64,000 nucleotides of DNA from the NCBI GenBank assembly GCA_026770705.1, contig JANJGN010000021.1, positions 97,092,001-97,156,000 on the forward strand. The letters run 5' to 3'. Source of the DNA: Isurus oxyrinchus (taxonomy: Eukaryota). The position numbers were made by a program. Position 1 is the stretch's first letter, and the number at the start of each line of letters is the position of its first letter. Positions 45,001 through 64,000 of the stretch are shown in pieces.

Positions 45001-48000
45001 CTTTTATGGCACCAAGCTTGGAGTCTGTGGAGAATGAGCAAGAAAGACAGCAGCCTTTTGAGCCGGCAGTCCATAAGACCATAAGACATAGGAGCAGAAA
45101 TTAGGCCATTCGGCGATCGAGTCTGCTCCAACATTCAATCATGGCTGAGTCATCAGTTTCAAAGCTGGCAATAGCGAAACAAGACAGCATAGTCCACCTT
45201 TGTGGGGTGGATGCCACAGGGAGAGTGTTCGAAGATATTTAAATTCTGCTCGGCTTTGAACGTCTACTTCTTTCCTGCAGCGAAGCAGCAAAGCAATCAC
45301 TCACGTGCGTTGCCATCGATGTATTGTGGTTAGTGAGCGGCGTTATAATTGCAGCAGCTTCTGAATGATTCCAATTGACGACAGCGCGTGTTTTGCTGTC
45401 CGACTTCTGCTAAAAGACGGCAATTGGGGACTTTAAAATTATATTTGATAGCAAAGCACATTTAATCCTTCCAAATCTAGCACCGTCACGTGTCTGTGTG
45501 TCATGCCTCTTCTCCATGATTTACCTTCCTTTCGCACTCACCAACCTCCTTGACTTCATTCCTTCCATTTAATAATCCGCCTGCTGCGGCAGGTGCATGG
45601 TTGAATTGATTTTGCTACTATTGCTGTTTCTGGTGTAATATAACTAATTCACAGCAATGGCATCTGTGCTTTGAAAGCAATGGCTGCATAGAGATCTGTG
45701 TGACAGCAGACAGCCAAGCACTGCACAGGCAGGGTTGAAATCGAAAAATCTCGACGCGTTTGCTCGCGAAATTTTCTTGCGAACCTCTCCATACAGTCAG
45801 TGTTGGAAGTAAAAAGAGAAATAGTTGACAAAATTAATCATAGCAGTCTGGCAGGTTCTGTCGGAAGAGAAACAGGGTTAACTTTGCAAGTCTCAGTTTC
45901 CCAGTGCTTTTCTGCTTTTATTTGAGGCTTATAAATTGCTCTGTCTTCTCCAACAATCACACCATCTCCCCACCTGGATCGTCACACACACTCCCAGCAC
46001 ATTTCAATCCATAACACCGATTACATTTCTACTTCTGTTCAACCCTGAACAAGTGTCTTACGGACTCAAATGCACCTCCATTTCTGTCTTCACAGATCTG
46101 CCAGAACGGTTGCGGTTATTTTCAGTTTTCACTTCACAATTGCAGCAACCGCATTATTTTACCTAAAAGTTACCTTGTTACTGTCTTCAGAGTAGCTGTT
46201 TGCTCATCTCAGCACTTGCTGCATTCATGTTGGCATTGGAGACGTTGGTTCTGAATAGCTTTGTTCCAATTCACAGAAAATTGTTCTCTTCAAATCCAGA
46301 GAAAATTATGCTGTTAGGTTGTACCTCATTTTGTCTCGGAGTTATTCCTCGCCCTTTTATGCTGGCACTGCCAAACTTGGCGCACATTCAACATGTATTC
46401 CCCTGTCAAGAAAGCTTTTCAAGGTGGAACTTCAACTTATGCAACTGCTAATGTCATTCTGAGGTACGCGCAAACCGATGGCGCTACCAGAGTGTTGCAT
46501 AAAACCTCCGAGTTCCTTCTCCTCCACGTGTTAGATGGTACCATCGCGGTGACAGGGGAACAGATCTTTTCAATTAGAGCGCGAAAACTGGATTTCAATG
46601 ACAGTGTGCCACCATTGTTACTATGGCCTGTGAACAAACTGATGAAGGAGCCGATGATAAACTAGGTGCCCAGAAGTGGCGAAAAGGTAATATATTCAAA
46701 GTTGTGCCCTTTTGTAACTCCAACATGGGACGAAGGAAAAGATGTCTCCTTCCAAAAAAATATGTATATATATATATTTCACTTTAGAATCAGTGACCGG
46801 TATACCAGCTGCAATGCACTTTTTTTTTTTTTTTTACCATTTTTCGTAATAGAATGAGCTGCTTTGTAAAGGTAATTCCACGAAACTGTCAGTAAAGAAG
46901 AATCAATGGGGAGCAGTCTTGCACAAACACGAGATACATGTCGGAATCGCATATTCATTCGCCAAATTGACGTTAGAGAGAGTCGGGAGGAGAGCTCTTT
47001 AGTTAGTAAATCAACTGAAGTGGGCTATCTTTCTTGTCAACCAAAGCAGTCTTCAATGTGAGAGCCTATAGGCCTGGAGGGTATGTTTCTATACCTTTTT
47101 ACTTCATATCAGGGATAAGTCCGACGCTGATTCCTGGTAAAATATTGTTTTGCTTTGTGGCAGCAGCAACATCCGTTCTCAGGGAATTTCATAACTCTTA
47201 AGCATAAGTTCAGTTTTCCTTTCGGAATCTGCTGATAGACTTCCTGCACACCTGTAACATTTACACTTTCCATTTCTGCTTTACATCATGTGTAGTGTTT
47301 TCGTTTTGTGTGCATGAAGCTGGAGGATATCTTACAATGTTATTTTAGAAAAGCCGACTCTGATTTGGATCAGTGGACTTTGAACAGCTGTATTATTAAC
47401 TAAAGGTTCTATCAAATGGACGCTGCCAAGCACGACGAAGACAAACGTTTGGAATATGTTTTCATTTTCTCCATTCAATGCAATGCCTGAAATCTGCGGC
47501 CAAAGAACAGGAAGTTTTGCAAACATGGATGCGCAACTCACTCCTCAGCGAGAGGCTTGCCGTGCGATTGAACGGTTTTTTCGAAGTGTTTGGTGGTGAG
47601 GATGTGCTACCAGCCCGCAGCTTGGCGGCCCATGCTCACAGCGACGGGTGGTGCCGTGATTGTATAGTGGTTAGTGCACTGCGTTGTGCGCCAACTTAAA
47701 TTGGGTTCGAATCAGAGCCAGGGCAAAGCTGCTTTCCGTTCTTTAGCTGGAATAACAGGGAGGAATGTTCAAACTTGCAACACCAGTTTGTAATGTGAAA
47801 GTGCAATTCATAATTTCAATATAACACCCCACTAGTCTGTCTTTTGTTATCCAGACTACAATCCAACACCACATCAGTTGTATCTGCCTGCCCAATTCAC
47901 TGATCTCTTTCAATTACTTCATATTTCATTGTCATTTTACTGTGGCATTGTCTCAACTAATACTCTCTATCACACTGACAACGTTGAGTTACTTTTTCTA

Positions 48001-63000: not shown

Positions 63001-64000
63001 TTCTTCTCCTCCACGTGTTGTTTGGTCTCATCGTGGTGACAGGGGAGCAGATCTTTTCAATTAGTGTGCAAGAAATTGATTTCTATGACAATGTGCAACG
63101 ATTGTTACTATGGCCTGTGAAGAAACTGTTGAAGGAGCATGATGTTATACTAGGTGCCCAGAAGTGGCGAAAAAGTACTATATTCAAGGTTGTGCCCTTT
63201 TGTAACTCCAATGTGGGAACAACGGACAAGAAGTCATCTTCCAAAAAAATATGTATATATATATTTCACTTTAGAAACTGCAATGCACTTTTGTTCCATT
63301 TTGCGTAATCGAATGAGCTGCTTTGTAAAGCTATTGCCCTGAAACTGGCAGTAAAGAAGAATCAATGGGGAGCAGACTTGCACAAGCACGAAGTACATGT
63401 CGGAATCTCATATGCATTCAACAAATTGACGTTCCAGAGAGCCGGGAGGAGAGCTCTGTAGTTAGTAAATCAGTTGAAGTGGGCTATCTTTCTTGCCAAC
63501 CAAAGCAATCTTCAATGTGAGAGCCTATTGGCCTGGAGGGTGCGCTTCCATAACTTTTTACTTCATATCAGGGATAGGTCCTACGCTGAATCCTGGTAAA
63601 ACATTGTTTTGCTTTGTGGCAGCAGCAACATCCGTTCTCAGGTAATTTCATAACCCTGATGCATTAGTTCAGTTTTCATATCGAAATCTGCTGTCAGACT
63701 TCCTGCACACCTGTAACATTTACACTTTCCATTCCTGCTTTACAGCATGTGCAGTGTTTTCGTTTTGTGAGCATGAAGCTGGAGGATATCTTACAATCAT
63801 ATTTTAGAAATGCCGACTCTAATTCGGACTGCTGGACTTTGAACAGCTGTATTATTAACTAAATGGAGACTGCCAAGTACCACGAAGACAAACTTTCGGA
63901 ATATGTTTTCGTTTCCTTCTTTCAATGCAATGTCTGGAATTTGTGGCCAAAGAACAGGAAATTTTGGAAGCTTGGATGCTCAATTCACTTTTCTGCGTGA

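What the first reader, a model, noticed from the sequence alone, without database searches (positions are those of the whole stretch)
45312..64000. Single-isoacceptor tRNA-His macrosatellite (2347-bp unit) caught at its edge, with a decay gradient
Seen: each unit carries exactly one full-length tRNA-His(GTG). Units right of ~54.9 kb differ by only a few SNPs, while units to the left are progressively more diverged, down to a barely recognisable tRNA at 45312. Known: tandem tRNA clusters exist in vertebrates (for example Xenopus oocyte-type tDNA and the human chr1 tDNA repeat), usually with several isotypes per unit. Inference: this is a His-only array under concerted evolution, with edge units escaping homogenisation, and possibly a high-dose oocyte/embryo tRNA source.
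Basis: partly seen in the sequence, partly recalled or inferred. Interest (0 to 1): 0.7.

Follow-up and report, generated by a model that had tools for sequence, protein, structure and literature searches.

The report
Layered tandem array of tRNA-His genes
This is a real head-to-tail array of 2.3-kb repeats, each built around one histidine tRNA gene, that has been re-amplified in discrete bursts; it is a clear but ordinary example of a known kind of tRNA gene cluster.

Summary
The array is real. Eight head-to-tail units fill 45312-64000, with start-to-start spacings of 2341, 2328, 2379, 2352, 2347, 2347 and 2347 bp. Each unit holds one tRNA-His-derived segment.

Three points in the finding need correcting.
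- Only 4 of the 8 copies are intact tRNA-His(GTG). Two are full-length but damaged, and two are wrecks.
- Divergence is stepwise and mosaic, not a smooth gradient. There are sharp in-register breaks at about 54880 and about 46160, and the order is not monotonic.
- 45312 is not the edge of the family. An older 3-unit array lies at 6767-13875. Inverted relics containing unit junctions and decayed tRNA-His remnants are scattered to the left end of the window.

The rest of the unit shows no coding content and no second conserved element.

The intact copies have a perfect cloverleaf, A and B boxes, A73 and a T4 terminator at +17. They also carry a derived T at position 44.

The best reading is a tDNA macrosatellite renewed by unequal crossing-over and gene conversion. 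Expression, oocyte use and total copy number could not be tested here. I do not take the window for human. Verdict: a new member of a known kind, of modest interest.

The parts
54880..64000 (+). Youngest layer: about 3.9 units, 99.6-99.7% identical, cut by the window end. It starts at unit position 169 inside unit 54712.
   Evidence: The change point is at unit position 168. There are 16 variable sites among the 4 young units over unit positions 169-2248, and each is private to one unit.
46161..54879 (+). Middle layer: about 3.7 units, 88-94% identical to each other and to the young units, and mosaic.
   Evidence: Unit 45312 changes class near unit position 850 (44% to 12.6% divergence). Unit 49981 changes near position 1069 (6.2% to 12.4%).
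45312..46160 (+). Old-class left part of the leftmost unit of the contiguous block, including a decayed tRNA remnant at 45312-45383.
52360..52431 (+). Intact tRNA-His(GTG) in a middle-layer unit. The first T4 run lies at +61.
   Evidence: It has 0 of 72 differences, against 142 of 2274 in the rest of the unit.
57059..57130 (+). Intact tRNA-His(GTG), with a T4 terminator at +17.
59406..59477 (+). Intact tRNA-His(GTG), with a T4 terminator at 59494-59497. This is the reference unit.
61753..61824 (+). Intact tRNA-His(GTG), with a T4 terminator at +17.
49981..50052 (+). Damaged tRNA-His copy. Changes are G1>T, T32>C, A42>T, and the invariant T-loop/B-box C (Sprinzl 56) >T. Two stem pairs are broken.
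   Evidence: (46.5 bits)
54712..54783 (+). Damaged tRNA-His copy. Changes are G1>T, G4>C, T32>C, T33>A and the B-box C>T. It shares three of these with copy 49981.
   Evidence: One search reports it, but searches do not.
47653..47725 (+). Wrecked tRNA-His copy, with a 1-nt insertion and many broken pairs.
6767..13875 (+). Older array of the same unit family: about 3 units, 63-69% identical to the young unit, with periods of about 2330-2430 bp. The first unit is truncated and carries an internal duplication of about 575 bp.
9129..9200 (+). tRNA-His-derived copy at unit position 1 of the old array. Its anticodon has mutated from GTG to GTA, so ARAGORN calls it Tyr. It has 8 substitutions and 2 broken pairs.
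   Evidence: (46.8 bits)
11501..11556 (+). The 5' two-thirds of a tRNA-His copy; the 3' part is lost.
20727..22136 (+). Ancient array relic containing a unit-end to unit-start junction, with a decayed tRNA remnant near 21467.
22144..23884 (-). Inverted partner of the previous relic. It also contains a junction and a tRNA remnant. The centre of the palindrome is near 22140.
   Evidence: (I2, I9)
27928..29222 (.). Scrambled ancient unit fragments in both orientations, with a tRNA remnant near 27928.
36474..39010 (-). Ancient inverted relic with a unit junction and a decayed tRNA remnant near 38391. It is interrupted by about 1.2 kb.
2..260 (-). Ancient unit fragment (profile positions 1889-2161) at the left end of the window.

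Best explanation
This is a nuclear tDNA macrosatellite. The unit is 2347 bp, with one tRNA-His(GTG) gene at its start and about 2.27 kb of non-coding spacer. The array is repeatedly renewed by in-register unequal crossing-over, tandem segmental duplication and gene conversion, while older copies decay, get interrupted and get inverted (birth and death with local homogenisation).

Shown:
- There are three age layers in the window, with sharp in-phase boundaries.
- Single units are mosaics.
- Two damaged tRNA copies lying two units apart share mutations. This hints at an earlier duplication step of about 4.7 kb (two units).
- The newest layer descends from a unit that carried an intact gene.
- Much older relics still contain unit-to-unit junctions.

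Inferred:
- The 4 intact copies are ordinary Pol III genes. TFIIIC would bind the internal A and B boxes, and transcription would stop at the T4 run 17 nt downstream. G-1 is not encoded (position -1 is C, the discriminator is A73), so it would be added afterwards by Thg1, as in other eukaryotes.
- These copies would supply a tRNA-His isodecoder marked by T at position 44.
- Repeated re-amplification at one locus over a long time suggests, but does not prove, that dosage from the array matters. One possibility is maternal supply, as in zebrafish.
For: - Periodicity and identity.
- Sharp change points at unit position 168 (window about 54880) and about 850 (window about 46160).
- The first 168 bp of unit 54712 differ from unit 49981 at 4 of 168 positions, and from every other unit at 16-34 of 168.
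- Distances vary by segment. Unit 52360 is 2.3-3.0% from the young units over positions 1501-2100, but 6.9-9.1% over 169-850 and 1070-1500 (4.1-5.0% over 851-1069).
- A tree of positions 1070-2248 joins units 45312 and 49981 with support 1.0.
- The profile search finds the older array and relics with unit junctions in both orientations. By my sum of the coordinates, about 31 of the 64 kb is unit-derived.
- All four relic starts keep tRNA-His remnants.
- The tRNA is the best conserved island between old and young units: 0.87-0.88 identity against roughly 0.6 elsewhere.
- The four intact copies have 0 broken pairs, the GTG anticodon, an exact B box and 61.9 Rfam bits. The three young ones have T4 at +17; unit 52360 has its first T4 at +61.
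- The unit 52360 gene is unchanged (0 of 72) while the rest of its unit differs at 142 of 2274 positions, P=0.0096.
- Position 44 is T in all 7 copies from 47653 rightwards and C in all 7 older copies.
- No coding content: 1 weak reverse transcriptase (RT) hit among 16 ORFs, outside the array, and 0 hits among 121 ORFs.
Against: - In the middle layer the tRNA segment is not protected in 3 of 4 copies: 13 of 72, 4 of 72 and 5 of 72 changes. Per-copy selection is therefore weak or absent, and half of the copies in the block are dead.
- The P=0.0096 for unit 52360 is one of three comparable tests. A short conversion tract would explain it equally well.
- Nothing here shows transcription.
- All 16 young-layer variants are singletons. 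That also fits polishing noise in a hard-to-assemble repeat.
- Total array size and copy number are unknown, because the window ends inside the array.
- The species is unknown, so whether T44 differs from the dispersed tRNA-His genes of the same genome is unknown.
Confidence: 0.75

Rival explanations
1. The array is a neutral or silenced repeat. It is kept only by recombinational instability and sits in repeat-rich, probably heterochromatic DNA. Its tRNA genes contribute little or nothing to the tRNA pool, as with the clustered tDNAs of Arabidopsis.
For: - 4 of 8 tRNA copies in the block are damaged or destroyed, and middle-layer copies change at or above the spacer rate.
- No second conserved element was found in the unit.
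- The surroundings are repeat debris: an RT fragment, SINE-like elements and inverted relics.
- Precedent: clustered Ser, Tyr, Pro and Cys tDNAs in Arabidopsis keep canonical Pol III signals but are CG-methylated and silent (PMC7544208, passages read).
Against: - The intact gene in unit 52360 has persisted despite 6.2% divergence in the rest of its unit.
- The newest amplification copied an intact gene with a close T4 terminator.
- CpG transitions are only 20 of 307 singleton changes (6.5%), while CpG bases make up 5% of the unit. There is therefore no strong sign of methylation-driven decay.
- The zebrafish precedent points the other way (PMC11417395 and 10.1101/869651, passages read).
Confidence: 0.3
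2. The near-identical right-hand block is an assembly artefact: one or two real units were over-expanded or mis-polished.
For: Units are 99.6-99.7% identical, and all 16 differences among them are private to single units. Consensus errors would look the same. The window ends inside the block.
Against: The block joins an older unit in perfect register through a hybrid unit. The older layers and relics independently show true tandem organisation at this locus. Spacings are exact at 2347 bp, with no junction scars.
Confidence: 0.07
3. The unit is a mobile element with a tRNA-His head, so the scattered copies are insertions and not relics of the array.
For: Fragments occur in both orientations over 39 kb. 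tRNA-derived SINE-like elements do exist in the window.
Against: Several fragments contain a unit end followed by a unit start, meaning they were cut out of tandem arrays. The unit has no coding capacity. A T4 terminator 17 nt after the tRNA would stop a Pol III read-through transcript. At 2.3 kb the unit is far longer than a SINE (established knowledge).
Confidence: 0.05
4. The array acts mainly as a chromatin boundary, like the human 1q23.3 tDNA repeat with its conserved CTCF site.
For: tDNAs can act as insulators (established knowledge). The human repeat is proposed as a boundary element (PMC4041453, abstract read).
Against: A recalled CTCF core consensus has 0 matches with up to 1 mismatch in the whole window, against 0.57 expected by chance. 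No island other than the tRNA is conserved between old and young units. No flanking genes are visible in the window.
Confidence: 0.08

Closest known systems
Human 1q23.3 tDNA variable-number tandem repeat (Darrow and Chadwick 2014, PMC4041453; abstract and section 12 read)
   Same: It is a kilobase-scale head-to-tail unit carrying tRNA genes, with about 98% identity between units, and the tRNAs are the only conserved or transcribed part of the unit.
   Different: The human unit is 7.3 kb and GC-rich, with five tRNA genes of four isotypes on both strands and a conserved CTCF site. Here the unit is 2347 bp at about 42% GC, with one His gene on one strand and no CTCF-like motif.
Zebrafish large per-anticodon tRNA clusters, mostly on chromosome 4 (bioRxiv 10.1101/869651 and PMC11417395; passages read)
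   Same: There are many near-identical copies of one anticodon in repetitive clusters. The authors link clustered isodecoders to maternal deposition and solitary copies to later stages. An array-specific isodecoder (T44 here) fits that pattern.
   Different: I could not see whether a His-GTG cluster is listed, because the tables are in supplements, which are closed. Bermudez-Santana et al. (PMC2888827, passages read) report mostly heterogeneous adjacent pairs in zebrafish and clawed frog. The species of this window is unknown and no expression data exist for it.
Arabidopsis single-isotype tDNA clusters: Pro, and Cys with 0.4-kb units (PMC7544208, passages read; PMC10701932, abstract start in a search listing)
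   Same: These are tandem repeats holding one isotype, with canonical Pol III signals retained.
   Different: This is a plant, the units are much shorter, and the clusters are shown to be methylated and silent. Here the methylation state is unknown and CpG decay is weak.
Xenopus 3.18-kb oocyte-type tDNA repeat (recalled, not read here)
   Same: A tandem unit of similar size that is proposed to supply the oocyte.
   Different: It carries several tRNA isotypes per unit (recalled).
5S rDNA arrays with maternal and somatic types (PMC5340908, abstract start in a search listing)
   Same: A small Pol III gene plus a non-transcribed spacer in tandem, evolving by concerted or birth-and-death dynamics.
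   Different: The gene is different, and the promoter is a different type that depends on TFIIIA.

Membership tests
Functional eukaryotic cytosolic tRNA-His gene | Complete cloverleaf with a GTG anticodon and a high covariance-model score | tested here: met
   4 of 8 copies in the block have 0 broken pairs and score 61.9 bits against a gathering score of 29. The other 4 fail or are damaged.
Functional eukaryotic cytosolic tRNA-His gene | Internal Pol III promoter (A and B boxes) and a downstream T-run terminator | tested here: met
   The B box is exact in the intact copies. T4 lies at +17 in the three young units and at +61 in unit 52360. The B-box C is mutated to T in copies 49981 and 54712. 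The box consensus sequences are recalled.
Functional eukaryotic cytosolic tRNA-His gene | G-1 not encoded and discriminator A73, so G-1 is added by Thg1 | tested here: met
   Position -1 is C and the last base is A. The Thg1 rule is established knowledge.
Functional eukaryotic cytosolic tRNA-His gene | Transcribed and aminoacylated | not testable with these tools
   No expression data are available.
tDNA macrosatellite / tandem tDNA array | Head-to-tail kilobase units, each holding tRNA gene(s) | tested here: met
   There are 8 in-register units with spacings of 2328-2379 bp and one tRNA-derived segment each.
tDNA macrosatellite / tandem tDNA array | High identity between units, showing homogenisation | tested here: met
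   Identity is 99.6-99.7% among the 3 rightmost units, and 98.7-98.8% for hybrid unit 54712 as a whole (0.41% divergence after its first 168 bp). The left units are 78-94% identical.
tDNA macrosatellite / tandem tDNA array | Copy-number variation between individuals | not testable with these tools
   There is a single sequence and no reads.
Human 1q23.3-type tDNA repeat | Several isotypes per unit and a conserved CTCF site | tested here: not met
   Each unit holds one His gene. A CTCF-like core has 0 matches.
Maternal/oocyte-type Pol III gene array | Array-specific sequence variant distinct from the somatic type | tested here: inconclusive
   T44 is found in all 7 copies from 47653 rightwards, and C44 in all 7 older copies. 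The dispersed His genes of this genome could not be seen.
Maternal/oocyte-type Pol III gene array | Oocyte-restricted expression | not testable with these tools
   No expression data are available.
tRNA-derived SINE or other mobile element | Dispersed single copies with defined ends, and a tail transcribed from the tRNA promoter | tested here: not met
   The relics contain tandem junctions. A terminator lies at +17. The unit is 2.3 kb.

The most novel reading that the evidence does not exclude
The locus is a long-lived, self-renewing battery for one array-specific tRNA-His isodecoder (T44). It would be kept through repeated rounds of amplification because oocytes or early embryos need the dose. 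The window would then preserve a dated record of at least three renewal rounds, plus older inverted relics. By Jukes-Cantor distances that I derived by hand from the divergences, the layer ages stand at roughly 1: 20: 150. On this reading a single-isotype maternal tRNA array would be a regulated dosage device and not just a by-product of recombination.
Probability: 0.2. Interest if true: 0.5.

Novelty: new member of a known kind. Interest (0 to 1): 0.3.

Why it matters
Tandem tRNA gene arrays are usually collapsed or ignored in assemblies, and how they turn over is poorly documented. This window gives a clean, readable case with three features.
- It has discrete age layers with breakpoints in register.
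- It has a hybrid unit that marks where the latest homogenisation stopped.
- It has dead copies that were themselves duplicated.

The amplified gene carries a private marker (T at position 44). A single tRNA-seq experiment could therefore tell whether the array is used, and in which tissue. Beyond that, it adds one more example to a known class.

Tried and rejected
- Coding content. Pfam was run on 16 long ORFs and 121 further ORFs. These came from the 211 stop-to-stop ORFs of at least 75 aa in the window, 184 of them left of 57100. I left out the ORFs right of 57.3 kb, most ORFs inside units 45.9-54.8 kb and most inside the old array, because they repeat the same unit. The only hit was a reverse transcriptase (RT) fragment outside the array at 4761-5252 (28.5 bits, below the 29.6 cut-off).
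- Long ORFs. The 241-aa frame at 53229-53951 is open in one unit only and has no family match. The 280-aa frame at 31742-32581 is a Ser/Pro-rich low-complexity frame.
- Species. Homologues of the RT fragment were 2 unnamed proteins at 32% identity among 171 candidates. The atlas says only a eukaryotic, jockey-like reverse transcriptase. The species was not found.
- A second conserved element in the unit. None reaches the level of the tRNA.
- CTCF-like motif. There were 0 matches.
- The bacterial promoter and terminator scan is not applicable to a eukaryotic Pol III gene, and I gave it no weight.
- Transcription-associated mutagenesis. Unit 52360 has 7 private changes in the 128 bp after its tRNA, out of 54 private changes in the unit. 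This is suggestive, but the numbers are small. The paper PMC6130373 was seen only as a listing with the start of its abstract.
- Literature. Searches returned no report of a nuclear His-only tandem array. The His hits among the papers listed (12-20 of 16 to 6,910 matches per search) were mitochondrial or tRNA-profiling papers. One search was also unhelpful, and one search failed on a phrase that was too long.
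Full report
**What is there.** The window has no N.
- ARAGORN finds six tRNA-His(GTG) genes on the + strand at 49981, 52360, 54712, 57059, 59406 and 61753. It also calls a 'tRNA-Tyr(GTA)' at 9128.
- BLAST of the unit 59406-61752 against the window gives eight consecutive in-register copies from 45.3 kb to the window end, all with E=0. Identities are 80.7, 91.9, 89.2, 93.7, 98.9, 99.7, (100) and 99.6%.
- Unit lengths are 2341, 2328, 2379, 2352, 2347, 2347 and 2347 bp. 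The last unit is cut at 2248 bp by the window end.
- The array, its period and its orientation are therefore real and far beyond chance.

**The tRNA copies.** Only four copies (52360, 57059, 59406, 61753) are identical and intact.
- They are 72 nt long with no broken stem pair, a GTG anticodon, an exact B box and A73. Position -1 is C, and Rfam scores them at 61.9 bits.
- The three young copies have a T4 run at +17 (59494-59497 in the reference unit). Unit 52360 has its first T4 at +61.
- Copy 49981 carries G1>T, T32>C, A42>T and the invariant T-loop/B-box C>T, and scores 46.5 bits.
- Copy 54712 carries G1>T, G4>C, T32>C, T33>A and the same B-box C>T. Rfam does not list it even at E<=1.
- Copies 47653 and 45312 are wrecks.
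- 'One full-length tRNA-His per unit' is thus true only as 'one tRNA-His-derived segment per unit'.

**Layers, not a gradient.** Whole-unit identity to the young units runs 78.0, 92.9, 90.5, 93.9 and 98.8% from left to right. It is 99.6-99.7% among the last three units.
- Unit 54712 is a hybrid. It has 18 of its 27 differences from unit 59406 in its first 168 bp. The best change point is at position 168 (10.7% then 0.41%), which is window position about 54880.
- Unit 45312 is also a hybrid. Its first 850 bp or so are 44% different and the rest 12.6% different, which places the break near window position 46160.
- Unit 49981 changes class near position 1069, from 6.2% to 12.4%.
- Per-segment matrices show further mosaicism. 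Unit 52360 is 2.3-3.0% from the young units over positions 1501-2100, but 6.9-9.1% over 169-850 and 1070-1500 (4.1-5.0% over 851-1069).
- The first 168 bp of unit 54712 match unit 49981 at all but 4 of 168 positions, and differ from every other unit at 16-34 of 168.
- The two damaged tRNAs share three mutations. A tree of positions 1070-2248 joins units 45312 and 49981 with support 1.0. These related pieces lie two units apart, which suggests an earlier duplication step of about 4.7 kb. I hold this loosely.
- Among the four young units there are 16 variable sites over positions 169-2248, each private to one unit.

**The family extends across the window.** A profile of the unit (nhmmer) finds several more pieces.
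- An older array lies at 6767-13875: about three units, 63-69% identical to the young unit, with periods of about 2330-2430 bp.
- Relics lie at 2-260(-), 20727-22136(+), 22144-23884(-), 27928-29222 (mixed), 33164-33298(+) and 36474-39010(-).
- Three of these run from a unit end into a unit start, so they were cut from tandem arrays and are not single insertions.
- The copy at 9129 sits at unit position 1. It is a tRNA-His with its anticodon changed from GTG to GTA, 8 substitutions and 2 broken pairs.
- Copy 11501 keeps only the 5' two-thirds of the tRNA.
- The four relic starts still align to tRNA-His.
- By my sum of the coordinates, about 31 of the 64 kb is unit-derived. So 45312 is the left end of the contiguous block, not of the locus.

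**Content of the unit.**
- No protein family matches any ORF of the unit.
- Between old and young units the tRNA is the best conserved island: 0.87-0.88 identity against roughly 0.6 elsewhere. No other 60-nt window reaches that level in all comparisons.
- A recalled CTCF core consensus has no match in the window.

**A derived marker.** Position 44 is T in all seven copies from 47653 rightwards and C in all seven older copies. From memory, and unchecked here, the common vertebrate tRNA-His has C there and otherwise matches this gene. The whole contiguous block would then descend from one founder carrying this change.

**Selection.**
- The gene in unit 52360 is unchanged (0 of 72) while the rest of its unit differs from the young type at 142 of 2274 positions, P=0.0096. 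This is one of three such tests.
- The other middle-layer copies changed as fast as or faster than the spacer: 13 of 72, 4 of 72 and 5 of 72.
- Of 307 private substitutions, 126 are transitions and 20 are CpG transitions (6.5%). CpG bases make up 5% of the unit. There is therefore no strong mark of methylation decay.

**Origin of the sequence.**
- CpG observed/expected is 0.59, far above what I recall for bulk mammalian DNA.
- Rfam finds no 7SL/Alu-type match at E<=1.
- The only protein trace is a decayed jockey-like reverse transcriptase.
- I do not take the window for human.
- The species was not identified. Genome-wide copy number, dispersed His genes and orthologous loci therefore stayed unchecked.

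**Mechanism.**
- Shown: tandem units, in-phase layer boundaries, hybrid and mosaic units, duplicated pseudogenes, and ancient relics with junctions.
- These are the expected products of repeated unequal crossing-over, tandem duplication and gene conversion, with decay and rearrangement of older copies.
- Inferred: the intact copies are transcribed by Pol III through their internal promoter, terminate at the nearby T4, and yield a U44 tRNA-His that receives G-1 from Thg1.
- Whether the array is a dosage device (passages read in PMC11417395 and 10.1101/869651 link clustered zebrafish tRNA genes to maternal deposition) or largely silent (passages read in PMC7544208 for Arabidopsis) cannot be settled from sequence.

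**Comparison with what is known.** The closest vertebrate case read here is the human 1q23.3 repeat. It has 7.3-kb units, five tRNA genes of four isotypes, about 98% identity between units and a conserved CTCF site (PMC4041453, abstract and section 12). The present array works like it in turnover. It fails that type's defining features of several isotypes and a CTCF site. Bermudez-Santana et al. report that clusters arose independently many times, with homogeneous pairs common in some lineages (PMC2888827, passages read). Searches found no description of a nuclear His-only tandem array. However, supplements were closed and most subscription papers are not in the library.

**Verdict.** This is a real structure and a new member of a known kind. 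The functional reading remains open.

Noticed in passing
window 9128-9201 (+): ARAGORN calls this tRNA-Tyr(GTA). It sits at unit position 1 of the old array and is a decayed tRNA-His whose anticodon changed from GTG to GTA. It has 8 substitutions, 2 broken pairs and a T4 run at +23. This looks like an anticodon shift in a probable pseudogene.
   Followed up: yes
window 28501-28595 (+): A tRNA-like element of 95 nt with an insert at the anticodon region (Rfam 31.5 bits). It has TAT in the anticodon position, one acceptor-stem mismatch and a T5 run right after it. It may be an intron-containing tRNA-Ile(TAT)-like gene or pseudogene, and it lies inside scrambled ancient unit fragments. ARAGORN did not call it.
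   Followed up: partly
window 14898-15385 and 42663-42795: A tRNA-derived SINE-like element on the minus strand (tRNA-like hit at 15314-15385, 24.9 bits). Its body is a 5-copy tandem repeat of 88 bp. A partner in the opposite orientation is 95% complementary over 133 nt, and the two bracket about 27 kb.
   Followed up: partly
window 31346-31542 and 32962-33158: A long inverted repeat (197 nt, 86% complementary) around 1419 bp. It lies in a strongly C-rich stretch (GC skew -0.41 at 32-34 kb) that holds a 280-aa Ser/Pro-rich open frame with no family match. It may be a foldback or terminal-inverted-repeat (TIR) element.
   Followed up: no
window 20727-23884: A palindromic (inverted) duplication of an ancient piece of the array, centred near 22140. 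The arms are 84-87% complementary.
   Followed up: partly
window 4761-5252 (+): A decayed jockey-like non-LTR reverse transcriptase fragment (Pfam RVT_1 at 28.5 bits, just under the cut-off). Its best homologues are only 32% identical.
   Followed up: partly
window 6767-7782: The truncated leftmost unit of the old array carries an internal duplication of about 575 bp (unit positions about 600-1030 appear twice).
   Followed up: no
window 47653-64000 (unit alignment): Private substitutions between units show a low share of transitions (126 of 307) and almost no CpG excess. This is unusual for a heavily methylated vertebrate genome and remains unexplained. Alignment error may contribute.
   Followed up: no
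window 53229-53951 (+): A 241-aa stop-free frame exists in unit 52360 only. The same frame is broken in every other unit and has no family match. It is probably chance.
   Followed up: partly
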